Source of the DNA: Thermoplasmata archaeon
GTDB lineage: Archaea; Thermoplasmatota; Thermoplasmata; Lutacidiplasmatales; UBA184
Assembly: GCA_030039995.1 (NCBI GenBank)
Contig: JASHUL010000082.1
Location: forward strand, 1 to 28,035
Length of the DNA: 28,035 nucleotides
Direction: 5' to 3'
A program made the translations under genes and the position numbers. Of the stretch, positions 13,051 through 27,337 are shown one piece after another. Each line of letters starts with the position of its first letter. Position 1 is the stretch's first letter. The notes beneath the pieces are model-generated. The model made no database searches, had not been told where the DNA came from, and saw nothing but the letters and a program-made list of their open reading frames with translations.

Positions 13051-13285
13051 ACGTCCCGGGACACGTGAGCTCCCGGAGCTACGGATCGGTCCACGCACCG
13101 GTGACGGGGGATACCCTACCATGGGCTGATTTCGAAGCCGAGTTGGCACGACTCCACGTAGTTTCTCCGCGGGACGGGCTTTCCACAGAAAATTGGCCTT
13201 CCCGTCGTTTCGGGGGGCGTTTACTCGCCCGACCGTAGATTTCACCGCTCGCACGACTTTTAGAGGTCGGATGTATCCGACCACC

Positions 13286-15244
13286 GTGGCGACCGGGCGC
13301 CGCCTCGCGGCGGTGATGTTTACCGACACCGTAGGGTTCACCGCCTCGACGCAGGCGAACGAGGGGCGCACGCTCGACCTGCTCCGCCAGCAATCGGAGT
13401 TGTTGCGTCCGCTCCTGACGCTCCATCAAGGCCGAGAGATCAAGTCCACCGGTGACGGGTTCCTGGTCGAATTCGACAGTGCGCTCAAGGCGGTCCGATG
13501 CGCCGTGAACATCCAGCGCAGCATCTACGAGAGGAATTCCGAAGCGCCTCAGAGCACCATTCGGATCCGCATCGGGGTCCACTTGGGCGATGTGGTCCAG
13601 AACGGCTCCGATATCCTCGGGGACGCCGTGAACATCGCGGCCCGCATCGAGCCGCTCGCGAACCCCGGCGGAGTGTGCGTCTCGGGAGCCGTCTACGAAC
13701 AGGTTCGCACCAAAGTCACGGAGAAGTTCGAAAAGCTGGAGGCGAGGGCCCTGAAAGGCGTCGAGCTGCCGATGGATGTCTATCGTGTCGTCCCCTCCTG
13801 GGAGGAGAACGGCGGGAAGGACGGAGGGGGCTTCCCCCACTCCCTCGACAAGGCGCGGGTCGCCGTGCTCCCCTTCGATAACATCAGCCCGAACCCCGAA
13901 GACGAGTACTTCGCGGACGGATTGACGGAGGAGCTGATCTCGAACCTCTCCCTGGTTCCCGGTCTGAAGGTCATCGCTCGGACGTCGATCCTCGGCTACA
14001 AGAAGGGCGAGAAGTCGGTCGCCGCGATCGGAAAGGAACTCGACGTCGGCACGGTGGTCGAGGGCAGTGTCCGTCGCGCGATGAACAAGATTCGGGTCAC
14101 CGTCCAGGTGATCGACGTCGCCACCGAGGAGCACCTTTGGTCGGCCAAGTACGACGACGATCTCGCCGACATCTTCGCGGTCCAGAGCGATATCGCCAAC
14201 AAGGTGGCGACCTCACTTCCGGGCGATCTACTGAAGCCGCAAGCTCCGGTCCCCGAAGTCGAACGCCCCAAGGAGACCGAGGCGTATCTTTCGTACCTTC
14301 AGGGCCAGGCGCTCATCTGGAAGCGGGACGAGGCCCCGCTGCGGAAATCCCTCGAGCACTTTCAGAAGGCGATCGAGAGCGACCCGACCTTTGCCCGAGC
14401 GTATGCCGGGATGGCTCGGGTGTACATCAACCTGGGCGTCGAGGGATACCTCAGCTGGGGCGGTTCGATCGAGATGGGGCAGGCGGCCGCCGAGCGAGCG
14501 GTCCGCCTGGACCCCGACCTGGCCGAGGCGCATGCGACCTTGGGAGAGATCGCCTTCATGGCGGACGATGCCGCGGAAACCTTGGACCGAGAGCTCCGAC
14601 GGGCCCTGGAGCTCAATCCGAACCTCACGCATGCCCACAGCATCCTGGGCGCGCTGGCAGGGTCTTTCGGAATCCTGGAGCCGTACCTCCTCGAAAACGA
14701 GGAGGCGTATCGATTGGACCCGCTCTCGCCCCCGATGATCCGGCGCCAGGGCGAGGCGCTGTTCAATTCGGGGCGTTACGAGGAGGCCGCGGCTCACTGG
14801 AAGGCGAATCTCGGAAACGACCCGATCGACGCCTATCGTGGCTTGGCGGAACTTCACATGCTCCGGGGCGAATACGACCAGGCGGACGCGATGGTGCGCG
14901 AGCTGGAGCGGCTCGCGCCGAGTAGCGACGGCGCCTTGCTGTCCCGGGGGTACCTCGCCGCACTGAGCGGGGACCGCGACACGGCCCTCCGCATGATCGA
15001 TCGGATCGCGGAGTTGTTCAAGAAGGGGTCTTCCCGTCAGTCGTCGATCGGGTACATTTACTACGCGCTGGGGGACACGGATCGGTTTTTCGAGTACATG
15101 ATGGCCGCGGCGAAGAACCACACCCTTCAGGCGGTGCGCGTCCGCCTCTGCCCGCTGTACGCGGCAGCCCGGAGAGACCCCCGGTTCGTGATGATGATCA
15201 TTCAGGCCGGTCGCCCCATGCAGGCCTCCAAAGCGCATAACTAG
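13286..15244 (+). CDS. Class III adenylate/guanylate cyclase + TolB-like domain + TPR repeats (paralog 2); about 652 aa
   Basis: MFTDTVGFT, EIKSTGDG, DILGDAVNIAARIE and VAVLPFDNISPNPEDEYFADGLTEELI, then TPR-like helices. Start moved to GTG 13286, 22 nt after TTTTAG and collinear with the N-terminus of paralog 1; ATG 13271 is possible. Confidence 0.92.
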   Translation: MATGRRLAAVMFTDTVGFTASTQANEGRTLDLLRQQSELLRPLLTLHQGREIKSTGDGFLVEFDSALKAVRCAVNIQRSIYERNSEAPQSTIRIRIGVHLGDVVQNGSDILGDAVNIAARIEPLANPGGVCVSGAVYEQVRTKVTEKFEKLEARALKGVELPMDVYRVVPSWEENGGKDGGGFPHSLDKARVAVLPFDNISPNPEDEYFADGLTEELISNLSLVPGLKVIARTSILGYKKGEKSVAAIGKELDVGTVVEGSVRRAMNKIRVTVQVIDVATEEHLWSAKYDDDLADIFAVQSDIANKVATSLPGDLLKPQAPVPEVERPKETEAYLSYLQGQALIWKRDEAPLRKSLEHFQKAIESDPTFARAYAGMARVYINLGVEGYLSWGGSIEMGQAAAERAVRLDPDLAEAHATLGEIAFMADDAAETLDRELRRALELNPNLTHAHSILGALAGSFGILEPYLLENEEAYRLDPLSPPMIRRQGEALFNSGRYEEAAAHWKANLGNDPIDAYRGLAELHMLRGEYDQADAMVRELERLAPSSDGALLSRGYLAALSGDRDTALRMIDRIAELFKKGSSRQSSIGYIYYALGDTDRFFEYMMAAAKNHTLQAVRVRLCPLYAAARRDPRFVMMIIQAGRPMQASKAHN

Positions 15245-15544
15245 ACCCTTCCGGGGGGCCCGGGCTGCTTCCTCGACCGAGGAATCCGTAGCTCCATGGC
15301 GGACGGACGGATGAGGGACCTTGACGCCCGGCGGGATTATCCTCGAGACCATTCACAGCTGCGATGACTGTGGCAACGCCCCCCCGAAACCGCGGTGGGA
15401 GCCGATTCCGATTCGCCGGGGATTCAGGGTGGGCTGCCACGCTCTCGGGAGAGCCATCCGGACCGGTTTCGGATACCGAACTGTTTAGATACTGCTACTT
15501 CGGCTCTACTACGCCGGCATCGGGCCGAGCGGCCCGTCCGGCAA

Positions 15545-17848
15545 ATGAACGGTCACCGGTACCCCGCAGGATTTCTGCTCAGCGTCGGTGTCGGTGGTCT
15601 CTTGATCCTCGGGTCCGTCGTACTCCTGCCCGCACTCGCGCTGTGGGAGCCGGGGGTTGGAGCTTCGACCTCACCCGCCGGCCCGGGTCTCACTCCTTTT
15701 GTTTCCGAAGGAGGGAACACCGCAACGGCGTGCAGTGACGTCACTACGTGCACGACCGCGTCGATCACCGATGTCGATGCGGGGGACACGTTGGTCGTCG
15801 AAGTCACGGAGTTCACCACGTCACGAGGGGACCCTTCGGCGGTCGAAGCGGTCACCGCGGGAGGTTACCGGGCGCTCAGCTTGGTCGGAACCACGACCTG
15901 CGTCGCGGGCAGTGGTCACGGAGTCTCGGCGGTCTACGGTCTCACGGATGTCAGCGCCCAGAGTTCCGTGAAGATCGTGGTCAACTATTCGACCGCGTCG
16001 TACTACACGGTCCACGCGTTGGACGTCGAAGGCGTGGCGGCTTCTCCGTTCGAAACTGCGGGAACCGGGGTCTGTTCCGCCGAAGCGGCGACGACCGGAA
16101 CCGCCTCCGTTACCACGTCGGTCCCCGACGACCTGGTCATACTCGCGATGGAGGTACGGGCCTCCACGACCCTCGCCGCGACCGGGGGCGACGCTCTGGT
16201 GAACGATGCCGCCACGACGGGCGCCGACCTCGACTCGGGGGGGATGCTGGAGGAGATCGACGGCGGCACGGGCCCGATCTCGCTCTCCGCGACCTTCGCG
16301 GACGCCTCTTGGGCCGCGATCGCGGTCGCCCTGAAGTCCTCGCCGTTGGTGTCCGGGACGGTCACCCCCTCGGTCTCGGGGATCGACGCCGGACAGACGG
16401 TCGAGCTCTCGACCTCCGCGGCGACGGGGGGCACCACCCCGTACACCTACCATTGGCACGTGGCCACGTCGGTCTCCACCTGCGATTCCGGGGCGTTGAT
16501 CTCCGGGGCCACGGGCCCGTCGTACACGACCCCCGCGCTGGCCGTCGGCACTCACTACTACTGCGTTTGGACCTCCGACAGCAGCACTCCGACCGCCGAG
16601 GTCGTCTACTCGAACGTGGCCACGGTCACGGTCGCGGCGTCGCTGTCCGTGGCCATCGACCCGAACTCACCCACGATCCCCAGCGGACAGTCGGTGCTCT
16701 TGACCGCGGAGCCGTCCGGCGGAACGGGCGCGGACAGCTACACCTGGTACCCCGGACTCGTCTGTTCGGGAACCGCTCTCGCCACGACCCAGGGATACAC
16801 CACCCCCGACCTTTCCGCCGGCGCCTCGTACTGCGTCGCCGCGACGGACAGCTCGCTCGTTCCCGAGACCGCGACGGCCACGGCCAACGTCACCGTACAG
16901 GGCCCCCCGCTGAACGTGACGGTCGATCCCGTCGCCCCGTCGATCGATACGGGCCAGGCGATCGAACTGCACGCCGAACCGACCGGCGGGACGGGACCGT
17001 ACACCTACGACTGGTACGCGGGATCGACCTGCACGGGCACGGTGATCGCCACGACCCAGAACTTCACCACTCCGACGCTCTCGGCCAATTCGACGTACTG
17101 CGTCGAGGTGACGGACAGCGAGTCTACGCCCGCGACCGCCAACGCCTCCGTCTCGGTGACGGTGAGCGCATCCCCGCTGACCGTCGAGATCACCCCCGCT
17201 GCCCCCACCATCGGGTACGACCAAGCGGTGCTGTTGACGGCCCAGCCTTCCGGCGGCACGGGGCCCGACACCCTGGAGTGGTACGCCGGGTCGACCTGTT
17301 CGGGCACCCCGTTGGCGTCGACCCAGACCTACACGACCCCGGACCTCACATCGAACTCGACGTTCTGTGTGACGGCGATGGACAGCGCGTACGTTCCGGC
17401 CAGCGCGAGCGCGATGGCCGTCGTGACCGTCACTCCCGCCGCGAGCCCGGGCTCCGGGTCCGGGACGGGCTCCGGGCCGAGTTCGGGTTCGGGCGCGGGA
17501 GCCGGCGCTTCCCACGGGAGCGGTCTACCGTCCTACGTCTACCCGGTCGCGGGTCTGTTGGCGGCCATTGTTGCGGCGGCGCTGCTGTTGGCGCTGTTGG
17601 TTCGGCGGCGGCGGAAGGTCACCTTCACCGAAGCCGGCCTTCCTCCGGGGACCCGGTGGTCCGTCACGTTCGACGGTCAGGCGAAGGTGTCCTCGACCCC
17701 CAGCATCGTCTTTGACGGCGCGAAGGGAAACCGCCCGTACACGGTGGGCAAAGTGAGCGGATACGTGCCCTCCCCGGCCTCGGGGCAGATGAAGGTCGGT
17801 GGAGACCCCAACGAACAGAAGGTCACGTTCACGGCCCTGACCCCCTAG
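15545..17848 (+). CDS. Large surface protein: signal peptide, N-terminal beta domain, four Ig-like repeats, G/S linker, TM helix, thermopsin-type C-terminal domain; about 767 aa
   Basis: Signal-like FLLSVGVGGLLILGSVVLLPALAL. Repeats of the form P-x-I-x-x-G-Q-x-V-x-L...GGTG...W...C...YTTP-x-L...YCV...D. TM PVAGLLAAIVAAALLLALLV then RRRRK then VTFTEAGLPPGTRWSVTFDG. Start moved to ATG 15545. Confidence 0.85.
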   Translation: MNGHRYPAGFLLSVGVGGLLILGSVVLLPALALWEPGVGASTSPAGPGLTPFVSEGGNTATACSDVTTCTTASITDVDAGDTLVVEVTEFTTSRGDPSAVEAVTAGGYRALSLVGTTTCVAGSGHGVSAVYGLTDVSAQSSVKIVVNYSTASYYTVHALDVEGVAASPFETAGTGVCSAEAATTGTASVTTSVPDDLVILAMEVRASTTLAATGGDALVNDAATTGADLDSGGMLEEIDGGTGPISLSATFADASWAAIAVALKSSPLVSGTVTPSVSGIDAGQTVELSTSAATGGTTPYTYHWHVATSVSTCDSGALISGATGPSYTTPALAVGTHYYCVWTSDSSTPTAEVVYSNVATVTVAASLSVAIDPNSPTIPSGQSVLLTAEPSGGTGADSYTWYPGLVCSGTALATTQGYTTPDLSAGASYCVAATDSSLVPETATATANVTVQGPPLNVTVDPVAPSIDTGQAIELHAEPTGGTGPYTYDWYAGSTCTGTVIATTQNFTTPTLSANSTYCVEVTDSESTPATANASVSVTVSASPLTVEITPAAPTIGYDQAVLLTAQPSGGTGPDTLEWYAGSTCSGTPLASTQTYTTPDLTSNSTFCVTAMDSAYVPASASAMAVVTVTPAASPGSGSGTGSGPSSGSGAGAGASHGSGLPSYVYPVAGLLAAIVAAALLLALLVRRRRKVTFTEAGLPPGTRWSVTFDGQAKVSSTPSIVFDGAKGNRPYTVGKVSGYVPSPASGQMKVGGDPNEQKVTFTALTP
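16343..17440 (+). repeat. Four tandem Ig-like coding repeats (units begin at about 16343, 16640, 16904, 17171; period about 264-297 nt)
   Basis: Shared peptides GGTTPYTYHW / GGTGADSYTW / GGTGPYTYDW / GGTGPDTLEW and YYCVWTSDS / SYCVAATDS / TYCVEVTDS / TFCVTAMDS. Confidence 0.85.
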
Positions 17849-19234: not shown

Positions 19235-19447
19235 ATGCGCTACGAGGAGTTTCGTACGGCGATCCGCGAATATCTGACGTCACACCCCCACGGCGCGACG
19301 TGGACGGAGCTCCGGTCCGAGCTGGGAATGACGTATCGGATACCTTGCCCCACGTGGGTGGCCCGGCTGGAGCACGAGATCGGTCTCCTCCGGACTGGTG
19401 GGCCTCGGGGGAAGGTCTGGACGGTCCGAAAGCGACGATCGAGGTAG
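19235..19447 (+). CDS. Small basic winged-helix-like hypothetical protein; 70 aa
   Basis: MRYEEFRTAIREYLTSHPHGATWTELRSELG...GKVWTV, a helix-helix-helix-wing pattern. TTAAGA box 27 nt upstream of ATG 19235. Confidence 0.65.
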   Translation: MRYEEFRTAIREYLTSHPHGATWTELRSELGMTYRIPCPTWVARLEHEIGLLRTGGPRGKVWTVRKRRSR

Positions 19448-19451
19448 GACC

Positions 19452-20702
19452 CTGACGCCCGAAGCGATCCACATCTCGATCGGGCAGGTCCGCCGGCTTT
19501 CGATTGCGAAACAACACCTCGCGGGGCCGAGGCCCGCCCGTCCGGACCGGAAATCGATGCTGGACGTGGTTCGGGACACCGGGTACATCCAGTGGGATCC
19601 GGTCAACGTTGTCGCGCCGGCACACGAGCTCGCGTTCTGGAGTCGGCTGGGCGACTATCGCCACGCGGACCTGGAGCGCCTCATCTGGAAAGAGCGGAAA
19701 CTGTTCCAGGGCTGGGGGCATGCGGCGTCGCTGTTGCTGACGGAGGATTATCCTCTCCACTACTCACTGATGCGTCGGTATCCCGACTGCCTTTCCGACT
19801 CCTGGGGGAATTGGAAACGGCACGCGAAAGCGTGGCTCCCGAGGCACCGCGCACTTCGCCGGGCGATCCTGAGAGAGCTCGGAAAGGGGCCGCGGACCGT
19901 CAGTCAGTTCCCCCGTCACGCGAAGACACGGCGACGCGGCGACGCCTGGAGCTCGTGGAGCGACGTCTCCGCGATGCTGTTTCATCTCTGGATGGCCGGG
20001 GACGTGATGATCTCGGGCCACGAGGGCCGGGCGAACCTGTGGGCGCGGACGGAGGCGTTCCTGCCCACGTGGGCGAAACGGGAAACGCTGCCCGCCGACG
20101 AGGTCGAGCGTGCGCTCGCCCAACGGGCGCTGCGGGCGCTGGGCGTGGCCTCCGCACGGGAGATCAACGTAAGCTTCCCGAACGGACACTACCTGAATCT
20201 GAAGGCGAATCTCGCGAAACTCGTCAAAGACTCGGTCGTCATCCCCGTACGGATCGAGGGGCTGAATTCGAAAGAGACGCGCTACGTCCATCGGGACGAC
20301 GTCTCCCGCCTCGAGTCGCTCTCGGGCGACGGGGAGGAGCCGCGGACGACGATCCTGTCCCCCTTCGACAACTTGATCTGTCTGCGGGCCCGGGTCCACG
20401 AGCTCTTCGACTTCGAATTCTCGCACGAGAACTACGTGCCGCGGGAGAAACGCAAGTACGGGGTGTACGTGATGCCCCTCTTGCGGGGCGACCGATTCGT
20501 GGGTCGGATCGCTCCCCGGATGGACCGGGAGCACCGACGGTTGATCGTCGAGAGCTTCCACACCGAGGGATCCGGACCGGTCGACCCCGGGGCGGCCGTC
20601 GACGTGGCGGATCAGATCCGGGGGTTGGGCCAGTTCCTTGGGGCGGACGAGGTGGTCTACCCGAACAAGTTGCCGAAAGGCTGGCGTCGGGCGCTGAACT
20701 AG
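19452..20702 (+). CDS. YcaQ/AlkZ-family (HTH_42) crosslink-repair DNA glycosylase-like protein; about 416 aa
   Basis: QxD motif in GYIQWDPVNVV, LSPFDNLI, and ELFDFEFSHENYVPREKRKYGVYVMPLLRGDRFVGR. Start uncertain: CTG 19452 after GAGGT, or GTG 19398 overlapping the upstream gene. Confidence 0.88.
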   Translation: MTPEAIHISIGQVRRLSIAKQHLAGPRPARPDRKSMLDVVRDTGYIQWDPVNVVAPAHELAFWSRLGDYRHADLERLIWKERKLFQGWGHAASLLLTEDYPLHYSLMRRYPDCLSDSWGNWKRHAKAWLPRHRALRRAILRELGKGPRTVSQFPRHAKTRRRGDAWSSWSDVSAMLFHLWMAGDVMISGHEGRANLWARTEAFLPTWAKRETLPADEVERALAQRALRALGVASAREINVSFPNGHYLNLKANLAKLVKDSVVIPVRIEGLNSKETRYVHRDDVSRLESLSGDGEEPRTTILSPFDNLICLRARVHELFDFEFSHENYVPREKRKYGVYVMPLLRGDRFVGRIAPRMDREHRRLIVESFHTEGSGPVDPGAAVDVADQIRGLGQFLGADEVVYPNKLPKGWRRALN

Positions 20703-20789
20703 CGGCCCGATGGGAGCGACCTCGAGCCCGACCCGGGTCGGGGCCGCTGGGCCCACATATACCGCCGGGTCGTACCCCCCCACGCCTCG

Positions 20790-21626
20790 ATGCCGTGGAA
20801 ATACACCGATGACTACTACCGGGAATACACCCGGACCACCTGGAACGACAGTGCGGAAGCGTACCTCGGGCTGTTGACCCGCTTCGAACCGTTTCGCGCG
20901 AAGGTCGTGGAGCGGCTCGCCGCGCGCCCCGGCGAACGGGTGCTCGACCTCGGTACCGGGCCCGGCGAGCCCGCGATGACCCTCGCCGTCCAGGTCGGGT
21001 CCCAGGGACACGTGACCGGGGTGGACCTCTCGGAGAAGATGATCGAGATCGCGCGGAAGGTCGCGAACTCTCGACGGCTCCGTAACGTCGACTTCCAAGT
21101 GATGGATTGTTCCTCCCTCACGCTGGCCGATGCGTCGTTCCACGCCGCGACGTGCTGCTTCGGGTTTCAGATCTTCACCGACCCCGAGAAGGCCGCGCGG
21201 GAAACGTACCGCGTGCTGAAACCCGGGGGACGGGTCTCGGTCTGCGTGTGGAGCACGGGCGACAAGGTCCCGTTCCTGCACGCGATCATCGAGCCGATGC
21301 TCGAGCACGCGGAACCCGACGAGACGGGGTATCTGCCTACGCCGTACGAGACCGGCGGCCCCGGCGAGATGGTCGCGTTCCTCGGAGCGGCGGGGTTCCG
21401 CGGCGGGACGGAGCATCATCTGGTGCAGACCCTGCGTTACGACTCCCCGGACGACTACCTCCAGTCGATCCTCCAGGGAACTCCGATCGGTCACTCGCTC
21501 TCGGAGGAGGACCCGAAGACCCAGCAGGAGATCCTCCAGAAGACCCGCTCGAACCTGACCCGCTGGACGACGTCGAGCGGAGTCGGTCTTCCGGCGGAAT
21601 GCGTGGTCGTGACCGCGGTCAAATAG
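20790..21626 (+). CDS. Class I SAM-dependent methyltransferase (UbiE-like fold); 278 aa
   Basis: VLDLGTGPG, VTGVDLSEKMI, ASFHAATCCFG and VLKPGGRV. CATATA box 28 nt upstream. Confidence 0.9.
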   Translation: MPWKYTDDYYREYTRTTWNDSAEAYLGLLTRFEPFRAKVVERLAARPGERVLDLGTGPGEPAMTLAVQVGSQGHVTGVDLSEKMIEIARKVANSRRLRNVDFQVMDCSSLTLADASFHAATCCFGFQIFTDPEKAARETYRVLKPGGRVSVCVWSTGDKVPFLHAIIEPMLEHAEPDETGYLPTPYETGGPGEMVAFLGAAGFRGGTEHHLVQTLRYDSPDDYLQSILQGTPIGHSLSEEDPKTQQEILQKTRSNLTRWTTSSGVGLPAECVVVTAVK

Positions 21627-21709
21627 GCCGCGGACCACCTCGAAACCCCCAAACCATTAAGCCCCCGAGCGACCCATTTTTTCGTCTGGGGAGCGGCTTC
21701 GCCCCTGGT

Positions 21710-23263
21710 ATGTCCAACGATTCCGACGCGGCGCGCATTTGGCGCGACCGCGAGCAGCGAAGGGCGGTCGAGCGGGCCCGGATCGATGAAGAGCGGACCG
21801 ACCGTCGTCGAGAGCTCGGGCGGCTCGGTGGCAACCCCGACGGGCTGCCTCCTTCCCCCGAAGACCCGGGACCCCCATCCGCTCGGACCTCGAGTTCGGC
21901 GCGACCGTCCGGCGCCGTGACCTCCTCGTCCGGCGCGGTACCCGAGGGAGCCCATCGCGGCGGCGCTCCGCGGGAAATCGGGGGAGCGCTCCGACCCCCG
22001 TCGCTGCAGGAGTTCCTTCAGACCAATCCGATGGAGCGGTTCAACATCCTCGCGCTCAACGCTCAACGGTTTCCGGAACTGCTCGAGGCGGCCCGGGGGG
22101 ACGCGCTCCTCCTCGCCGCGATCGCGCGCCAGACCGAGGCGCTGATGGCACGGGTGAAGGAGGAGGTGGACGACCCGCTCAGCGCCGGAGCGTTCCTTCG
22201 CGACCAAGTGTATCGCTGGTATCGGGACAGCCCCGGCGAGGACGACTGGTCGGAGCGAATGTCCGACTGTTGGGCCGGACTGTTCGCCGACTCCCGGGTG
22301 AGTGGAGGCCGTCTGCAGCCCTGGCTCAATCTCCGACTCGGAGCCCTCCATGCGCAGGCCTCCCGATCGGGGTCGCTCGGGGGTCGGATGCGAGACAGCC
22401 TGCGGCGGAAGCGCCCCGCGGAGGTGGCCGTCGGCCGATCGACGATCCAGCAGATCCGCGCGGAAGTCGCCCAGGCGATCCTGGACGACCTGACCCGCCG
22501 CCGTCGGGATCCGGAGGGGCCGGTGCCGCTGGTCCACCTCAGCGAGCTCGCGATCCGTCGTCAGGTCGCGACGATCAACGACGTGCTCGCGCAGCTCTTC
22601 AACGGCCCCGAGACCGGGCCGTTCATCGTCCTCCACCCGAACCGGTACCCCGAGTGCGACGAAGTGCAGATCCGACCGCCGGTCGGGAACGTCATGGGAG
22701 CCGCCCTCGCCTACAGCCTCTCCACGGGGCGTTCGAGCCGGAAGCCCGTCGGTCGGACCCGCGGCCCCGCCGAGGCGGGAGTCCCCGCCGCGGGGGAGAG
22801 CCCGGACGACCCCGGCACGGACGACTCCGAGGAGCTCGACTCCTCGACGATCTGGGAGGCGGACCGTGTCGATGCCTCCGTGTGGCGTCGCGTGATCAAG
22901 GAACGCAAGCGCGAGCGCCACCGACTCGACACTCCCCCCAAGGACTGCCACGGTCGTAGCGCCTACGGGCCGCTGCGAACCCTCGTCCTCGAGGACACCG
23001 AGTTCCGCCAGTCGTTCCTTGCGGTGAAATGGCGGGGTCGTCCGGCGGGCCTCCCTCTGCTGTGCGCGCTCCTGCAGAAAGGGACGCTCGCGCCCGAGGT
23101 GGCGACGGACCACGAATACCTCGAAGCCGAGCTCGGCGACCTCGCGAAGGGCGACCCGCAGTGGCATCCGCCCGACCACACCTGGGCGATCGGCGAGTGG
23201 ACGGTCGCCCGCGAAGGCTCTCACGGCGAGGGGTTCCGTTTCACGGCCCAGCGACGCACGTAG
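21710..23263 (+). CDS. Hypothetical protein; 517 aa
   Basis: Long ORF with GC-biased third positions and a protein-like composition from MSNDSDAARIW onward. AAACCATTAAG promoter-like element at 21651-21661. The track's extension to 21107 overlaps the methyltransferase and was trimmed. Confidence 0.75.
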   Translation: MSNDSDAARIWRDREQRRAVERARIDEERTDRRRELGRLGGNPDGLPPSPEDPGPPSARTSSSARPSGAVTSSSGAVPEGAHRGGAPREIGGALRPPSLQEFLQTNPMERFNILALNAQRFPELLEAARGDALLLAAIARQTEALMARVKEEVDDPLSAGAFLRDQVYRWYRDSPGEDDWSERMSDCWAGLFADSRVSGGRLQPWLNLRLGALHAQASRSGSLGGRMRDSLRRKRPAEVAVGRSTIQQIRAEVAQAILDDLTRRRRDPEGPVPLVHLSELAIRRQVATINDVLAQLFNGPETGPFIVLHPNRYPECDEVQIRPPVGNVMGAALAYSLSTGRSSRKPVGRTRGPAEAGVPAAGESPDDPGTDDSEELDSSTIWEADRVDASVWRRVIKERKRERHRLDTPPKDCHGRSAYGPLRTLVLEDTEFRQSFLAVKWRGRPAGLPLLCALLQKGTLAPEVATDHEYLEAELGDLAKGDPQWHPPDHTWAIGEWTVAREGSHGEGFRFTAQRRT

Positions 23264-23296: not shown

Positions 23297-24235
23297 CTAC
23301 GACCCTTCGTCCTCGCCGGGAAAACGATGGGCGAGGACGCCGAGCTGGTGGATCAGGGTCCGGTACTCCTCGAACGGGTACTCGGGCTCCCACCCGCCGA
23401 CCGGGATCCGCGAACGACGGGCGATCCGCACTCCCGCGGAGCCGGGAACCAGTTGGAGACCGCTGAAGAACCACTGCGGGGGCGCGATGCGGGAGCCGCG
23501 CATCCCCTTCGCGCTCTCGAGCAGGCGGAGCGTGTGCGGGAAGTAGGCGGAGAGGATCCGCGACCCGACCGCCTCCCGGATACCGGACTGCCAGCTCGCC
23601 GGCGGGCTCGGCGGCACGAGGAGGCGGGCGAGGGTCCCCGGCGGGCACTGGTCGAACTTCGTGACCACGAACAGGGGATAGAGGTCCTGCGGCTTCCGCT
23701 GACGGCCTAGCGACAGGTAGCGGCTCAACAGCCCGAGCGTCGCCGCGAGGCGTCGGTCCGAGACGTCCAGGGGTCGGGAGTTCGTCGCGGGGTCGATCGG
23801 GCGCAGCCGCGACGCGTCGATGAGCGGGAGCACGACGGGGCTCTCGAAGAGGCGACGGGTCGACAGCTCGAGGATCGCGTCGTGCTGGGCGAGCTCCGCC
23901 ACGGACTCGGCCGAGATGCCCCCGAACTGGAGGCGAAACGAGGCGAAGCCGCCGCTGTGGTGGACCGCCGCGCCCGTCAGCCGAGGGAACGTACCGGTCC
24001 GGAAGGCGAAGACAAAGGAGAGCGGGTGGGTGTCCCAGTCGGCGTCCCACTCGGGGAACCGACCGGCCACCAGTTCTCCGTAGATCCCTTCCAGCTGTCG
24101 GATCGTCTCCCGGTCGGCGGAGAAACGGAACTTGTCTCCCTCCTCCGTGCCCAGGCGAAGCTGGGCCGCGTAAAGGAGACCGACGAACGTCGTGAGGCCG
24201 GACCCTCGGTCGCCGACGACCACCGCGGATCCCAA
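23297..24235 (-). CDS. TRAFAC-type GTPase paralog, predicted inactive (pseudo-GTPase); 312 aa
   Basis: Collinear with the 25137-26162 GTPase, but P-loop is GDRGSGLT, G2 region RFPEWD, G3 GISAE; G4 TKFD is retained. TTG start preceded by GGAGGT. Confidence 0.82.
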   Translation of the reverse strand: MGSAVVVGDRGSGLTTFVGLLYAAQLRLGTEEGDKFRFSADRETIRQLEGIYGELVAGRFPEWDADWDTHPLSFVFAFRTGTFPRLTGAAVHHSGGFASFRLQFGGISAESVAELAQHDAILELSTRRLFESPVVLPLIDASRLRPIDPATNSRPLDVSDRRLAATLGLLSRYLSLGRQRKPQDLYPLFVVTKFDQCPPGTLARLLVPPSPPASWQSGIREAVGSRILSAYFPHTLRLLESAKGMRGSRIAPPQWFFSGLQLVPGSAGVRIARRSRIPVGGWEPEYPFEEYRTLIHQLGVLAHRFPGEDEGS

Positions 24236-24275: not shown

Positions 24276-25088
24276 TCACGCGGACGCGAACGCCTCCGCG
24301 ATGCGGCTGTAGACCAGGTTCTTCCCCTTGGCCGGCGGGAGCGTCGGCTGGTCGATGCTCGCGTCCAGCAGCGTCCACGAGCCGTCCGCGCGCACGCCGC
24401 GCGAAGAGATCGCGAGGCGGAAGTGATTCATCGCGCTCAGGGTCGGGGCGTCGCTGATCGCGGGCAGGAGTCCGATCTCCTCCCCGGCGTAGAGCAGCTC
24501 CACCAGTCGATAGAGGAGCTCGTTGCGGTACTGGTTCGTGCTGCCGCGGCAGAGGATCAGGGTGCGTCCCTGCTGGTCCGACAGGAACCGGCTCGCCAAC
24601 GTGTCGACGGCGGCCTTGGTGATCAGCCGGTGGATACCGGTCCCTCGCGGCTCGAGGACGTCCCCGAACGGGCGGACCGGCACGGAGATCGGGTCGATCT
24701 TGCCGGTGGCCTTCGGGAACTTCTTGTCGAAGTCGAGCGTCGCCGACTCCACGTCGACGAACCGAAGCCGACCGTTCCGCATCGCGTCGAAGGGGATCAC
24801 CACCGTGTGGTTCGCGATCGTCGGCCGGTTGTACTCGTCCGCGACCCCCCGGCCGAGGATCGAGAGGAGCACCTCCCGATTCGCCGGGGCCGGGTGGATC
24901 ATGCGGGCGTCGATCACCGTGCCGCCGCCCGCCGTCTTCTCGACCCGCACCGGCGTGAAGTGGTTCTCGAGGTACCGCATGTAGAGCGGGCCGTTCAGCC
25001 CGCGGGACTCCGCCTTGATCCCGTACCCCTTCTCGTGGCTCGCGCCGTAGATCCAGTGCTCCAGCGGGAGCACCGTCTCGTCATTCAT
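24276..25088 (-). CDS. GTPase-associated protein (GAP1-N2-like; possibly DENN-like); 270 aa
   Basis: HWIYGASHEKGYGIKAESRGL and DEYNRPTIANHTVVI resemble my recollection of the GAP1-N-type signature (Y-G...G-Y-G-x-x-A-x-S; D-x-x-x-R...H). It lies between two GTPases and has a strong GGAGGTG Shine-Dalgarno. Confidence 0.65.
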   Translation of the reverse strand: MNDETVLPLEHWIYGASHEKGYGIKAESRGLNGPLYMRYLENHFTPVRVEKTAGGGTVIDARMIHPAPANREVLLSILGRGVADEYNRPTIANHTVVIPFDAMRNGRLRFVDVESATLDFDKKFPKATGKIDPISVPVRPFGDVLEPRGTGIHRLITKAAVDTLASRFLSDQQGRTLILCRGSTNQYRNELLYRLVELLYAGEEIGLLPAISDAPTLSAMNHFRLAISSRGVRADGSWTLLDASIDQPTLPPAKGKNLVYSRIAEAFASA

Positions 25089-25136: not shown

Positions 25137-26162
25137 TTAGGCCGTCGCGGTGGCGGGCGCCGCCGGGGTCTGGAGCGTCGTCTGCTCCACGATCTCGTCG
25201 GGCACCTTGTTCGCGACGTCGCGGAAGTGCTCGATGAACGCGACGTAGTCGTCGTAGGAGAAGTCCGGCTCCGCTCCGCCCTCGGCCGAGAAGCCCTTGC
25301 GGACGATGCGCGGCACCCCGATCGGCTGCATGCCGGCTTCCGCGGTCTCCGTCCGGACCCAGCTGAAGAAGTACGCCGCCTGGTCGAAGTTGACCCCGGC
25401 GACCTTGCCTCCGCGGATCTGCGAGAGCGTCTGGGGCATGAAGACGCGGAGCAGCGCCTCGGCGTACTCCTTGCGCTTGCGCTTTTGCTTGCCGTCCGGG
25501 ACCCCGCGGTGCAGCCCGAGCTTCACCAGGACCTCGTCCCGGATGGAATCGAACTTCGACAGCACGATCGCCGGGTAGATCACCGGGTTGCCGACGCTGA
25601 GCCCCTGCGCCTTCATCCGCGAGAACTCCTGCTTCTTGTACGTCTGGAGCGAGACGAGGAGCGAGGCGACCTCGCTGTCGTACTTCAGCATCTGGCGGAA
25701 GACCGGGGAGTCGATCTCGGTCGTCATCTTGCTGCAGTCGACCAGCGTGACGACGACGTGGCTCTTCAGGAGCTGCTGGATGATCGGACTCGCGGCGACG
25801 CCGGTCTCGATGAACTCCTGGACATCCTCGCCCGAGACATCGAACGCGGCGAACGAGAGCTTGGCGAACGGATTCACCCAGTTCTTGTCCTTCAGGGACG
25901 CCGGGAGCCGGCCCGCCAGGGGCTTTCGGTATCCGAAGACGAAACCGATCTCCGTCATCTCGTCCTTGAGCGTGGCCCCGGGGAATCGGGCGTCCTTCAT
26001 CCCCTCGTAGACCTGGCTCATCAGACGCAACGACTGGAGCGGGGCGTGGAATCGAAACGAATCCGACACCCGAGTTCCGTACTTCACCTGGGCCGCGTAG
26101 AGCAGCCCGAGGAAGGTCGTCTTTCCGCACGCACGGTCACCCAAAATCGCCGCTGGACACAT
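25137..26162 (-). CDS. TRAFAC-type P-loop GTPase (double-GTPase-system-like), predicted active; 341 aa
   Basis: G1 GDRACGKT, G2 Thr in RFPGAT, G3 DVSGE, G4 SKFD. AAGGAG precedes the ATG. Confidence 0.88.
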   Translation of the reverse strand: MCPAAILGDRACGKTTFLGLLYAAQVKYGTRVSDSFRFHAPLQSLRLMSQVYEGMKDARFPGATLKDEMTEIGFVFGYRKPLAGRLPASLKDKNWVNPFAKLSFAAFDVSGEDVQEFIETGVAASPIIQQLLKSHVVVTLVDCSKMTTEIDSPVFRQMLKYDSEVASLLVSLQTYKKQEFSRMKAQGLSVGNPVIYPAIVLSKFDSIRDEVLVKLGLHRGVPDGKQKRKRKEYAEALLRVFMPQTLSQIRGGKVAGVNFDQAAYFFSWVRTETAEAGMQPIGVPRIVRKGFSAEGGAEPDFSYDDYVAFIEHFRDVANKVPDEIVEQTTLQTPAAPATATA

Positions 26163-26186: not shown

Positions 26187-27167
26187 CTACGAGGGCCAAG
26201 AGTCGCTCGACCGCTCTTGTGCGGGGTCGCCCCAGGGCGACGTGCGCGAAGGGGACGAACACTCGCCCCCCGTAGGACCGTGAAGGAAGGCGAACGGGGA
26301 CTCCGCCCCGACGAGAGACTCCTCGGACCCGAGCGGTTGGTCAAAGACCGCGCCCGAACGGGAGGTGTCGGGCTCGTCGCTCGAGCGCCGGCTCGTCTGT
26401 TGGATCTCCCCACCGAGGATGCGGAGCACGCGCTCCGTCCGGGCCAGCCGCGCGTCGAGGGCGCTCAGCTGCGCGCTCAAGGTGTCGAGGGACTCGTCGG
26501 CCTCCGGGTCCGGTTCTCCCCGAGGGGTGGCGGGGGCCATCGGAGGCGGAACGATCCGGTGCAGCTCGGTGATCGTGAGGGTCCGGATGGCGAGCCCCAC
26601 CCCGACAAGGTCCGGAGCCGCCGACGCCTGGACCTCGGCCGCGAGCCGGTCCCAGTCGGGTTCTCCGGAGTCGGTGTTGATGCGCGCGAGCACGGAAGGG
26701 ATCGCTCCCTCCAGCGTTCGAGCGACGAGCGCTCGGACCTCCTCCTCGGACTTTCCGAGAAGATTCTCCGACGCCATCGAAAGGAAGTTCGGCATCGCGG
26801 GGACCTTGGCCTGCGCCTGAGCGCGGACCTCCCAGCCCGACGCCCGGTTCCCCTCGAGCGCATGCATCGACCGGACGGTCACGTCGACCACGACGGGCGC
26901 GAGCGAGAGATAGCCCACCCCGCGGTCCCAGGGGGCGACGAGCACCCGACCGCCGACCACGATCTTCGGCCGGCGGACCGTGACGTCGAACGGCATCACG
27001 GTCGGGTCGGGAGCGGACCGGGGGGCCTTCCGCCCGAACAGCACGAGCGCCCGGTTGGGGGGGACCTGTACGCTGCACCGAGTGTAGGCGACCCAGAATC
27101 CTCCTGCGATCGCGGCCGCGATGCCGCCGGCCTCGGCGAGCTGCCAGGCTAGATCGATGAACGCCAC
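26187..27167 (-). CDS. Flotillin-like SPFH-domain membrane protein with a shortened coiled-coil tail; about 326 aa
   Basis: N-terminal TM, then VPPNRALVLFGR, KIVVGG, ASENLLGKSEEEVRALVARTLEG and AAEVQASAAPDLVGVGLAIRTLTITEL, all matching flotillin SPFH patterns. Start moved to GTG 27167. Confidence 0.85.
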   Translation of the reverse strand: MAFIDLAWQLAEAGGIAAAIAGGFWVAYTRCSVQVPPNRALVLFGRKAPRSAPDPTVMPFDVTVRRPKIVVGGRVLVAPWDRGVGYLSLAPVVVDVTVRSMHALEGNRASGWEVRAQAQAKVPAMPNFLSMASENLLGKSEEEVRALVARTLEGAIPSVLARINTDSGEPDWDRLAAEVQASAAPDLVGVGLAIRTLTITELHRIVPPPMAPATPRGEPDPEADESLDTLSAQLSALDARLARTERVLRILGGEIQQTSRRSSDEPDTSRSGAVFDQPLGSEESLVGAESPFAFLHGPTGGECSSPSRTSPWGDPAQERSSDSWPS

Positions 27168-27337
27168 ATTCTGCCTTGCCACACCCCGGAAGGGACGCCG
27201 TGCGCGGCAAGCGCGCGGCGCTCCTGGTGCCAACGGTCGACCCGGGCGGCGTTAGCAGACGCGGTCTCTTGGTCCGAAAAAAGTCCGAAGTGGAAGAGGC
27301 CGGGTCCGACAGAGTCCCCGCTCATTGGGCCCGTCAT
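27149..27337 (-). CDS. Possible small leader protein of the flotillin-GTPase operon; 62 aa
   Basis: MTGPMSGDSVGPGLFHFGLFSDQETASANAARVDRWHQERRALAAHGVPSGVWQGRMWRSSI*. Purine-rich GGAGGGAAG upstream, a TATTTAT box at about 27418-27412, and a 19-nt overlap with the flotillin start. Confidence 0.35.
   Translation of the reverse strand: MTGPMSGDSVGPGLFHFGLFSDQETASANAARVDRWHQERRALAAHGVPSGVWQGRMWRSSI

What the first reader, a model, noticed from the sequence alone, without database searches (positions are those of the whole stretch)
24276..25088. Protein between the GTPases may be a minimal prokaryotic DENN-like GTPase regulator
Seen: an N-terminal alpha/beta region with YG...GYG..A.S and DEYNRPTIANH, then a second region FLSDQQGRTLILC...NELLYRLVELLY...AP...HFRLAIS. 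Known: GAP1-N domains accompany double-GTPase systems (Kaur, Burroughs, Iyer and Aravind 2020, eLife), and eukaryotic DENN modules (longin-like uDENN plus cDENN core) act as Rab GEFs or, in FLCN-FNIP, as a Rag GAP. Inferred by eye only: the second region follows the cDENN order (strand, helix ending LL.LLY, then a hydrophobic strand), suggesting a compact uDENN+cDENN protein.
Basis: inference. Interest (0 to 1): 0.75.

Follow-up and report, generated by a model that had tools for sequence, protein, structure and literature searches.

The report
Archaeal DENN-like partner of paired GTPases
A small archaeal protein encoded between two GTPase genes is a divergent "GAP1" protein whose predicted structure has the longin-plus-DENN shape of eukaryotic GTPase regulators, suggesting that this regulator–GTPase pairing also exists in prokaryotic accessory systems.

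Summary
More than 200 homologues were found, mostly in Thermoplasmata MAGs.

It lies in a four-gene minus-strand cluster: an SPFH/flotillin-like protein, an active DO-GTPase, this protein, then a paralogous GTPase that has lost its P-loop lysine.

No Pfam, NCBIfam or PADLOC model hits it directly. Three results still place it as a compact, divergent GAP1 (N2-type) protein of the DO-GTPase systems of Kaur et al. 2020:
- A profile-profile comparison links it to GAP1-N2 proteins (hhalign 96.5 %, E 8e-10).
- A DO-GTPase gene lies immediately upstream in all 11 loci examined.
- Homologues of that GTPase carry PF19993.

Its AlphaFold2 model is confident (pLDDT 92.5). The only full-length matches are DENN-module proteins: TagF, DENND1A/B and DENND10. 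The N-terminal half matches longin domains. There is no dDENN domain.

A model of a protein that passes the Pfam GAP1-N2 cut-off gives the same hits, so GAP1 N2+M appears to be a longin + cDENN module. I found no paper that says this.

GAP or GEF activity is inferred, not shown. The module is accessory: 24 of 80 genomes in the genus and 12 of 401 in the phylum carry it.

The parts
24276..25088 (-). P0001, 270 aa: compact GAP1 (N2-type)-like protein with a predicted longin + cDENN-like fold (the finding itself).
   Evidence: ORF and motifs. GC3 0.94. AF2 pLDDT 92.5. Foldseek and VIA-align hits to TagF, DENND1A/B and DENND10. hhalign to GAP1-N2 proteins, E 7.9e-10.
24669..25088 (-). Longin-like (uDENN / GAP1-N2) domain, residues 1-140. 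Order of elements: beta-beta-alpha-beta-beta-beta-alpha-alpha. It holds the family's most conserved residues: G21, Y22, P46, D84, R88, H94.
24807..24839 (-). Motif DEYNRPTIANH (D84-H94) in the loop before the last longin strand. D, R and H are conserved across the P0001 family and across Pfam-type GAP1-N2 proteins. R88 is a candidate arginine finger.
   Evidence: Translation. Near-invariant D84, R88 and H94. H invariant, and D and R at least 90 % conserved, in the merged alignment with GAP1-N2 proteins. The functional role is inference only.
24279..24668 (-). cDENN-like alpha/beta domain (GAP1-M region), residues 141-270. Alternating beta-alpha units with conserved R188, P215 and W238. No dDENN domain follows.
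25137..26162 (-). GTPase A, 341 aa: catalytically intact DO-GTPase. Motifs G8xxxxG13K14T, T64, D108xxG111E112, K203xD205.
   Evidence: Weak direct Pfam hits: DO-GTPase2 at 1.8e-4 and 21.7 bits, against a cut-off of 27. Homologues down to 35 % identity carry a precomputed PF19993 annotation. Atlas nearest clusters are DO-GTPase2. Invariant motifs.
23297..24235 (-). GTPase B, 312 aa: paralogue of A (~28 % identity) with a degenerate P-loop (GDRGSGLT) and Walker B (FGGISAE). It keeps TKFD. Probably a pseudo-GTPase partner.
   Evidence: Translation. Paralogy. The P-loop of the second paralogue is also degenerate in other lineages: GLT, GKR, PAFS, GTA, GRT.
26187..27233 (-). SPFH/flotillin-like membrane protein, 348 aa. 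It has an N-terminal hydrophobic segment and ends 24 nt upstream of GTPase A, so it is probably co-transcribed.
   Evidence: NCBIfam FloT local match at 3.3e-11, far below the equivalog cut-off. No Pfam hit. A 51 %-identical gene sits in the same position in a congeneric genome.

Best explanation
P0001 is the GAP1-type partner protein of a DO-GTPase module, of the GTPase-centric 'conflict' class described by Kaur, Burroughs, Iyer and Aravind (2020). Here it is reduced to its two core domains.

Those domains fold as a longin (uDENN-like) domain followed by a cDENN-like alpha/beta domain, so the protein is a DENN-module look-alike without dDENN.

I propose that it binds the active GTPase A, probably as part of an A/B heterodimer with the pseudo-GTPase B. 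Binding would be through the conserved patch at one end of the longin sheet: G21-Y22 in the beta1-beta2 loop, D84/E85/R88 in the beta4-beta5 loop, and H94. There it would set or read the nucleotide state of the switch.

A GAP-like role with R88 as arginine finger is slightly favoured over a GEF role. The reason is that conservation is concentrated in the longin domain, in a pattern that recalls the 'GP motif + arginine finger' of the FLCN, SMCR8 and NPRL2 longin GAPs.

The output is probably membrane-proximal, given the co-transcribed SPFH/flotillin-like gene. The patchy distribution and the fusions of this domain to TIR, HerA and AAA+ modules point to an accessory defence or stress module rather than housekeeping trafficking.

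Shown: the gene, its conservation, the gene order, the GAP1 and DO-GTPase relationships, and the predicted fold. Inferred: physical binding, GAP versus GEF, and the biological role.
For: - GAP1 membership: hhalign of the family profile against eight ~560-aa Thermoplasmata proteins gives 96.5 %, E 7.9e-10 over 190 columns. One of those proteins passes the Pfam GAP1-N2 gathering score (25 against 24 bits). They sit behind a TM-GTPase gene. GAP1-N2 is the top, though weak, Pfam family for 4 of 150 close relatives. The Atlas neighbours are GAP1-N2/M/N1 clusters.
- Context: a GTPase A homologue lies immediately upstream of the DENN-like gene in the window, in 7 Thermoplasmatota genomes and in 3 fused forms.
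- GTPase A is a DO-GTPase with an intact P-loop, switch-I Thr, DxxGE and xKxD. GTPase B is degenerate.
- Conserved residues cluster in the longin loops.
- Accessory character: 12 of 401 phylum genomes and 24 of 80 genus genomes carry it. Fusions to TIR, HerA and AAA+ exist. One relative sits beside mobile-element genes.
Against: - P0001 itself matches no Pfam, NCBIfam or PADLOC model, and no PDB sequence.
- The C-terminal half on its own matches RecA-like domains as well as it matches folliculin's DENN domain.
- The best structural match, TagF, works without any GTPase: it binds Hcp. A DENN-like fold therefore does not imply GEF or GAP activity.
- R88 is kept in versions fused to ATPases and TIR, so its role may be structural or more general.
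- The GAP1-C domain, and the FNIII and effector components typical of GAP1-N2 systems, are missing from this operon.
- The second model's alignment included P0001-family sequences, so it is not fully independent.
Confidence: 0.6

Rival explanations
1. P0001 is a nucleotide-independent adaptor, sensor or brake. It has the DENN-like shape but, like TagF in type VI secretion or as Kaur et al. proposed for GAP1, it only tethers the GTPase switch to a sensed ligand or to an output such as the SPFH protein. It would not catalyse exchange or hydrolysis.
For: - TagF is the top structural match. It acts by protein-protein binding with no GTPase involved.
- Kaur et al. describe GAP1 as the third component that coordinates sensing with the switch and recruits effectors.
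- The domain is fused to TIR, HerA and AAA+ modules, as expected of an adaptor.
Against: - An invariant Gly and near-invariant Asp, Arg and His in adjacent longin loops is more conservation than a plain tether usually needs.
- The gene is strictly adjacent to a catalytically intact GTPase in every locus examined.
Confidence: 0.25
2. P0001 is a classical DENN-type exchange factor. Its cDENN half grips the switch regions of GTPase A and expels GDP, as DENND1B does for Rab35.
For: Full-length structural alignment to the DENND1A and DENND1B GEF domains solved with Rab35.
Against: - Conservation is concentrated in the longin half, not the cDENN half.
- The partner is a ~340-aa DO-GTPase, not a Rab.
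- There is no dDENN domain.
- No sequence similarity to Pfam DENN or uDENN.
Confidence: 0.12
3. The cluster is a housekeeping membrane-organisation system (flotillin scaffold + GTPase pair + DENN-like regulator), an archaeal analogue of trafficking control rather than a conflict or defence module.
For: - An SPFH/flotillin-like gene is co-oriented 24 nt upstream and is conserved in a congener.
- SPFH-like proteins lie near the module in two other lineages.
- There is no recognisable toxin or effector in the operon, and no PADLOC hit.
- Sequence identity among Thermoplasmata copies is high, 70-96 %.
Against: - It is present in only 24 of 80 genomes of its own genus (13 of 30 high-quality ones) and 12 of 401 in the phylum.
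- Gene order is shuffled between lineages.
- The domain is fused to TIR, HerA and AAA+.
- One relative sits next to Cas4-like, primase-polymerase and ArdC genes.
Confidence: 0.2
4. The DENN resemblance is a coincidence: two very common folds (a profilin/longin-like alpha+beta domain and a Rossmann/RecA-like alpha/beta domain) happen to lie in the same order, with no evolutionary or functional link to DENN modules.
For: - Sequence identity in the structural alignments is 8-14 %.
- The C-terminal half matches helicase RecA-like domains equally well.
- There is no profile-level link to Pfam DENN families.
Against: - Of 48,161 representative chains, the only ones aligned over both domains are DENN-module proteins.
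- Foldseek gives probability 1.00 for TagF and DENND1A/B.
- The same hit list appears for a second, divergent family member.
- The genomic partner is a GTPase, as for DENN modules.
Confidence: 0.15

Closest known systems
GAP1 (GTPase-associated protein 1), N2 type, of the DO-GTPase conflict systems (Kaur, Burroughs, Iyer, Aravind 2020, eLife; Pfam PF20013 GAP1-N2, PF20014 GAP1-M)
   Same: - Encoded directly downstream of a DO-GTPase, often with a second paralogous GTPase.
- Shares the N-terminal motifs (aromatic-G ... G-Y/H ... P ... D-x-x-G-R ... H).
- Profile-profile E 7.9e-10 to GAP1-N2-bearing proteins.
- Membrane-proximal context.
   Different: - Only ~270 aa, covering the N2 and M regions. 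It has no GAP1-C domain and no fused effector or TM segment.
- No FNIII-repeat gene in the operon.
- It fails the Pfam GAP1-N2 model.
- It is archaeal (Thermoplasmatota) rather than from the bacterial phyla listed in the paper.
- The paper does not describe GAP1 as longin- or DENN-like.
Eukaryotic DENN modules, e.g. DENND1A/DENND1B (Rab35 GEFs; PDB 6EKK, 3TW8) and DENND10
   Different: - No dDENN domain.
- No detectable sequence similarity.
- The partner is a large TRAFAC DO-GTPase with a DxxGE Walker B, not a Rab.
- Conservation is centred on the longin half.
Longin-domain GAP complexes FLCN-FNIP2, C9orf72-SMCR8 and GATOR1 (NPRL2/3)
   Same: - A conserved Gly-aromatic lies at the loop entering the second strand, with a conserved Arg in a neighbouring loop. 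This resembles the 'GP motif + arginine finger' described in PMC12290439.
- It acts with a pair of GTPases, one of which differs in activity.
   Different: - A single polypeptide, not a heterodimer of two longin-DENN proteins.
- Equivalence of R88 to the catalytic arginine has not been tested by superposition.
- The motif is G-Y, not G-P.
TagF (type VI secretion accessory protein; PDB 9T0N, 6IZ8, 2QNU)
   Different: - TagF belongs to T6SS loci of diderm bacteria and binds Hcp and Fha, with no GTPase partner.
- There are no T6SS genes here.
- No sequence similarity.
Asgard archaeal Roadblock - Rab-like GTPase - DENN operon, and Asgard longin proteins (Liu et al. 2020 preprint/2021; PDB 8YQG)
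   Different: - The Asgard proteins are detectable with eukaryotic DENN profiles and pair with Rab/Rag-like small GTPases.
- This one is in Thermoplasmatota, pairs with DO-GTPases and is related to bacterial GAP1.

Membership tests
GAP1 (N2 type), Kaur et al. 2020 / Pfam PF20013 | Scores above the Pfam GAP1-N2 gathering threshold | tested here: not met
   No hit for P0001 even at E<=10. No PF20013 match in its genome. Only 4 of 150 close relatives give weak hits, best E 0.014.
GAP1 (N2 type), Kaur et al. 2020 / Pfam PF20013 | Homology to GAP1-N2-bearing proteins at profile level, with the shared N-terminal motifs | tested here: met
   hhalign A1 against A3: 96.5 %, E 7.9e-10, 190 columns, P0001 residues 5-203. 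One A3 member passes the Pfam cut-off. G22 and H90 are invariant, and P46, D79 and R83 at least 90 % conserved, in the merged alignment.
GAP1 (N2 type), Kaur et al. 2020 / Pfam PF20013 | Gene lies immediately downstream of (or is fused to) a DO-GTPase gene | tested here: met
   True in the window, in 7 Thermoplasmatota loci and in 3 loci with fused forms.
GAP1 (N2 type), Kaur et al. 2020 / Pfam PF20013 | Three-domain N-M-C architecture, often with C-terminal effector or TM extensions | tested here: not met
   The protein has 270 residues in two domains and ends after one helix beyond the alpha/beta domain. The ~560-aa GAP1-N2 relatives have a long helical C-terminal region that P0001 lacks.
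GAP1 (N2 type), Kaur et al. 2020 / Pfam PF20013 | Companion FNIII/beta-sandwich-repeat protein and variable effector genes | tested here: inconclusive
   None in the operon. An Ig-like repeat protein lies 5.4 kb away on the other strand (15395-17848). In relatives L016 and L017, Ig/cadherin/PKD-repeat proteins are directly upstream on the same strand, and in L015 an FGE-sulfatase-domain protein is adjacent.
DENN module (uDENN/longin + cDENN + dDENN; Pfam PF03456, PF02141, PF03455) | N-terminal longin (uDENN) fold | tested here: met
   [not shown]
DENN module (uDENN/longin + cDENN + dDENN; Pfam PF03456, PF02141, PF03455) | Central alpha/beta cDENN domain directly after the longin domain, in the same relative arrangement | tested here: met
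   [not shown]
DENN module (uDENN/longin + cDENN + dDENN; Pfam PF03456, PF02141, PF03455) | C-terminal all-helical dDENN domain | tested here: not met
   Only one helix (residues 257-268) follows the alpha/beta domain.
DENN module (uDENN/longin + cDENN + dDENN; Pfam PF03456, PF02141, PF03455) | Sequence-profile match to uDENN or DENN families | tested here: not met
   hmmscan against Pfam gives no family for P0001 at E<=10, for 38 diverse relatives at E<=0.01, or for 150 close relatives at E<=1 apart from weak GAP1-N2 hits. HHpred-type profile-profile comparison against DENN profiles was not available.
DENN module (uDENN/longin + cDENN + dDENN; Pfam PF03456, PF02141, PF03455) | GEF or GAP activity on a cognate small GTPase | not testable with these tools
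   Needs biochemistry.
DO-GTPase (Pfam PF19993/PF19975), for the flanking genes | TRAFAC GTPase with a Walker B glutamate (DxxGE), often as two paralogous copies | tested here: met
   GTPase A has G8xxxxGK14T, T64, D108-V-S-G-E112 and K203-F-D205, invariant in 24 homologues. Its own Pfam score of 21.7 is below the cut-off of 27, but homologues from 93 % down to 35 % identity carry PF19993. A paralogue, GTPase B, is present.
TagF (T6SS accessory protein) | Encoded in a type VI secretion locus and acting on Hcp or Fha | tested here: not met
   Archaeal genome. The neighbours are GTPases, an SPFH-like protein, a glycosylase and a methyltransferase. The resemblance is in fold only.

The most novel reading that the evidence does not exclude
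The N2+M core of GAP1, and therefore the constant third component of the widespread bacterial and archaeal DO-GTPase conflict systems, is a true prokaryotic homologue of the longin-cDENN module. On this reading the DENN-GTPase partnership arose in prokaryotic conflict or membrane-stress systems, outside and before the Asgard/eukaryote lineage, and GAP1 acts on its GTPase through a longin-face arginine as FLCN, SMCR8 and NPRL2 do. TagF would be a GTPase-less offshoot of the same prokaryotic radiation.
Probability: 0.3. Interest if true: 0.85.

Novelty: new variant of a known kind. Interest (0 to 1): 0.66.

Why it matters
DENN modules were long treated as eukaryote-specific GTPase regulators. 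In 2020 they were reported as otherwise known only from Asgard archaea. A 2026 paper noted DENN-like folds in bacteria and archaea but set them aside.

Here a DENN-shaped protein sits in a conserved operon with its probable GTPase partner in a non-Asgard archaeon. It also proves to belong to the GAP1 family, which accompanies DO-GTPases across many bacterial phyla.

If the link holds, three things follow:
- It gives a structural and mechanistic hypothesis for GAP1, a family so far defined only by sequence.
- It offers a small, soluble, three-protein system for studying how a longin-DENN module handles a GTPase pair in which one member is inactive, an arrangement that recalls Rag heterodimers.
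- It widens the search for the origin of eukaryotic GTPase regulators beyond the Asgard lineage.

Tried and rejected
- Direct family scans of P0001 gave nothing: Pfam at E<=10, NCBIfam, PADLOC.
- phmmer and profile hmmsearch against all PDB sequences gave only noise. The GTPase A profile against PDB also gave nothing.
- A PF20013 search of the window's own genome found no match.
- A second word-indexed search with the family profile returned only close relatives and did not reach annotated GAP1 proteins.
- Complex prediction of GTPase A + GTPase B + P0001 + GTP gave score 0.00 against a mark of 0.32. The verdict was 'no answer' and the controls were not run, so this is neither support for binding nor evidence against it.
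- BLASTP found no similarity between the window's SPFH-like protein and the SPFH-like/Zn-ribbon proteins near the module in L015 and L016. Those two are homologous to each other.
- Context look-ups for P0165 (TIR fusion), P0146 and P0141 returned contigs too short, or without DNA, to be informative.
- I considered and rejected three ideas:
  - The ORF is a high-GC artefact. GC3 is 0.94 and there are hundreds of homologues.
  - It belongs to a T6SS. There are no such genes and the organism is an archaeon.
  - The C-terminal domain is an active P-loop NTPase. It has no Walker motifs, and the loop after strand 175-179 reads RGSTNQ.

Full report
**Observation.** Window 24276-25088 on the minus strand is an ATG-initiated ORF of 270 codons. 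GC by codon position is 0.64/0.47/0.94, the clearest coding signature among all overlapping frames in this 66-70 % GC region. A word-indexed search finds 213 proteins at E<=1e-3; the best 120 are 70-96 % identical, and where named they come from Thermoplasmata MAGs. An exhaustive phmmer search of 1.8 billion cluster representatives finds 58 clusters, down to 22 % identity. The gene is real and conserved. The genome is a 65 %-complete Thermoplasmatota MAG.

**Surroundings.** Four co-oriented minus-strand genes are packed with 24-48 nt gaps.
- 27233-26187 encodes a protein with an N-terminal hydrophobic segment and a local match to the SPFH part of flotillin FloT (3.3e-11, far below the equivalog cut-off).
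- 26162-25137 encodes GTPase A.
- 25088-24276 encodes P0001.
- 24235-23297 encodes GTPase B.

GTPase A has G8xxxxGK14T, a switch-I Thr64, D108xxGE112 and K203xD205. These are invariant or, for the two Thr, at least 90 % conserved in 24 homologues. Its own Pfam hit to DO-GTPase2 is sub-threshold (21.7 against 27 bits). However, homologues from 93 % down to 35 % identity carry a precomputed PF19993 annotation, and its nearest Atlas clusters are DO-GTPase2. The Walker-B glutamate is the hallmark Kaur et al. give for DO-GTPases.

GTPase B is a ~28 % identical paralogue that reads GDRGSGLT and FGGISAE but keeps TKFD. The second paralogue also has a broken P-loop in other lineages: GKR, PAFS, GTA, GRT. 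Downstream genes are convergent and unrelated: an unknown 520-aa protein, a methyltransferase and an AlkZ-like glycosylase.

**What P0001 is by sequence.** It hits no Pfam, NCBIfam or PADLOC model and no PDB sequence. Two weak leads pointed to GAP1. The protein-language-model Atlas put it next to clusters carrying GAP1-N2, GAP1-M and GAP1-N1. GAP1-N2 was also the most frequent, though weak (best E 0.014), Pfam family among 150 close relatives.

To test this I searched 401 Thermoplasmatota genomes with PF20013. That search found a separate ~560-aa family. One member passes the Pfam gathering score, and the others score 16-21 bits, one of them to GAP1-N1 instead. Their gene follows a gene for a TM-anchored GTPase, which is the arrangement Kaur et al. 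describe. Profile-profile comparison of the P0001 family (A1, 38 diverse sequences) with this family (A3) gives probability 96.5 %, E 7.9e-10 over 190 columns, covering P0001 residues 5-203. In the merged alignment the Gly of G-Y and the His of N-H are invariant, and P46, D79 and R83 (L021 numbering; P0001 P46, D84 and R88) are at least 90 % conserved. P0001 is therefore a divergent GAP1 of the N2 type that has only the N and M regions.

**Conserved context.** The family HMM finds the gene in 12 of 401 genomes of the phylum and in 24 of 80 other genomes of its own genus, or 13 of 30 high-quality genomes counting the window's own. It is an accessory gene.

In seven genomes fetched with flanks, a GTPase A homologue is always immediately upstream. 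A second paralogue is usually present, but the order varies: A-D-B in this genus, and A-B-D or B-A-D elsewhere.

More distant homologues are fused to AAA+ (C-terminal), to HerA/DUF87 (N-terminal) or to TIR (N-terminal). In the three fused loci that I could read, a GTPase A homologue still sits directly upstream. One of these loci adjoins SNase, Cas4-like, primase-polymerase and ArdC-N genes, which suggests a mobile element. The core is thus a DO-GTPase plus GAP1-like dyad with lineage-specific additions, as Kaur et al. describe for their GTPase-centric systems.

**Fold.** AlphaFold2 with alignment A1 gives mean pLDDT 92.5 and pTM 0.91. Residues ~4-140 form beta-beta-alpha-beta-beta-beta-alpha-alpha. 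Residues ~147-268 form alternating beta-alpha units ending in one helix.

Foldseek against the PDB returns four hits at E<=1e-3: TagF 9T0N (1.2e-6), DENND1B 3TW8_C (1.2e-4) and DENND1A 6EKK chains A and B (3.2e-4, 4.3e-4). C9orf72, FNIP2, P. aeruginosa TagF, SEAC/Npr and Lst4 longins and a Lokiarchaeal Roadblock-Longin protein follow.

The scores are moderate, and the C-terminal half alone is not diagnostic. The case rests on colinearity, on the agreement of two methods, and on the absence of any other two-domain match. There is no dDENN domain.

**Literature.** Kaur et al. 2020 define DO-GTPases and GAP1 but never mention longin or DENN. No other paper in the library discusses GAP1-N1 or GAP1-N2. 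Zhang et al. 2012 derive longin domains from prokaryotic MglB/Roadblock and treat DENN and dDENN as confined to the DENN module. Liu et al. 2020 report DENN proteins in Asgard operons as the first outside eukaryotes. A 2026 paper notes DENND10-like folds in bacteria and archaea and does not pursue them. A 2026 preprint from the Aravind group says that profilin-longin-like domains often accompany GTPases in anti-selfish-element systems, citing unpublished observations. The 2025 TagF preprint calls TagF's C-terminal domain unlike any characterised protein and shows that TagF binds Hcp; no GTPase is involved. Within the literature I could search, the GAP1-DENN connection appears unreported.

**Mechanism (inference).** The family's strongest conservation lies in the longin half: G21-Y22 at the entry to the second strand, P46, D84/E85/R88 in the loop before the last strand, and H94. 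R188, P215 and W238 are conserved in the second domain.

In a longin sheet the beta1-beta2 and beta4-beta5 hairpin loops lie at the same end, so these residues should form one patch. I argue this from topology and did not measure it on coordinates. The pattern recalls the 'GP motif' at the loop before strand 2 plus the neighbouring arginine finger of FLCN, SMCR8 and NPRL2.

I therefore favour a model in which P0001 docks by this patch on GTPase A, probably within an A/B heterodimer whose B subunit is catalytically dead, and controls hydrolysis. I hold exchange-factor and pure-adaptor roles as live alternatives. TagF shows that the fold can work without a GTPase, and R88 is retained in the ATPase- and TIR-fused forms.

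The SPFH-like gene, the patchy distribution and the TIR/HerA/AAA+ fusions suggest an accessory membrane-proximal defence or stress module.

**Verdict.** The by-eye DENN inference is supported at the level of predicted fold. This is a new variant of a known kind of system. The added value is a structural hypothesis for the whole GAP1 family and a possible prokaryotic root for DENN-GTPase pairing. Catalytic function remains to be shown.

Noticed in passing
window 23297-24235 (-); L014-L019: The second GTPase paralogue has lost its P-loop lysine and Walker-B aspartate here (GDRGSGLT, FGGISAE). Its P-loop is degenerate in different ways in other lineages (GKR, PAFS, GTA, GRT) and intact in some (GKT). 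This suggests a recurrent active/pseudo-GTPase heterodimer.
   Followed up: partly
window 26187-27233 (-); L015:10105-11571 (+); L016:8261-9775 (-): An SPFH/flotillin-like membrane protein is probably co-transcribed with the module. In two other lineages, ~500-aa proteins lie next to the module; both end in a zinc ribbon and the L015 one has a weak Band_7 hit. They are homologous to each other (6e-33) but not BLAST-similar to the window's protein.
   Followed up: partly
window 13193-15244 (+); L056:5291-7234 (-): An adenylate/guanylate-cyclase + TPR protein lies 9 kb from the module in the window. A 40 %-identical homologue (E 4e-144) lies about 1 kb from a GTPase/DENN-like-AAA+ module in another MAG. 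This could be synteny or a functional link to nucleotide signalling.
   Followed up: partly
P0129, P0132, P0156 (AAA+); P0145, P0151 (HerA/DUF87); P0165 (TIR): The DENN-like/GAP1 domain occurs fused to AAA+, HerA-type ATPase and TIR domains. Where contigs allow, a DO-GTPase gene is still directly upstream.
   Followed up: partly
L021-L033, L041-L052 (Thermoplasmatota family f4 genomes): A separate ~560-aa GAP1-N2 family is present in 9 of 33 genomes of one family. It follows a ~560-aa TM-anchored GTPase gene and precedes ~475-aa and ~800-aa genes of unknown function. This looks like a fuller archaeal DO-GTPase/GAP1 system.
   Followed up: partly
L058:8602-13877: A DENN-like-AAA+ module sits beside SNase, Cas4-like PD-(D/E)XK, NrS1-1-type primase-polymerase and ArdC-N genes, which suggests an integrated mobile element.
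   Followed up: no
L057:2659-4564 (-): A Roadblock/LC7 protein and a GvpD-like P-loop ATPase are encoded divergently, right next to a DO-GTPase + HerA-DENN-like pair. That puts a second longin-superfamily protein in the same neighbourhood.
   Followed up: no
L015:3245-5761 (+); L016:14-4495 (+); L017:172-5289 (+); window 15395-17848 (+): Relatives have an FGE-sulfatase-domain protein (L015) or large Ig/cadherin/PKD/PG-binding repeat proteins (L016, L017) adjacent to the module. These recall the FGS effectors and FNIII-repeat components of GAP1-N2 systems. In the window an Ig_7-repeat protein lies 5.4 kb away on the other strand.
   Followed up: no
window 19398-21626 (+) and 21701-23263 (+): An AlkZ-like DNA glycosylase, a class-I methyltransferase and a 520-aa protein with no family hit run convergently towards the module's 3' end. 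The strand of the 21.5-23.3 kb stretch is ambiguous by codon-position GC alone.
   Followed up: no
   Followed up: yes
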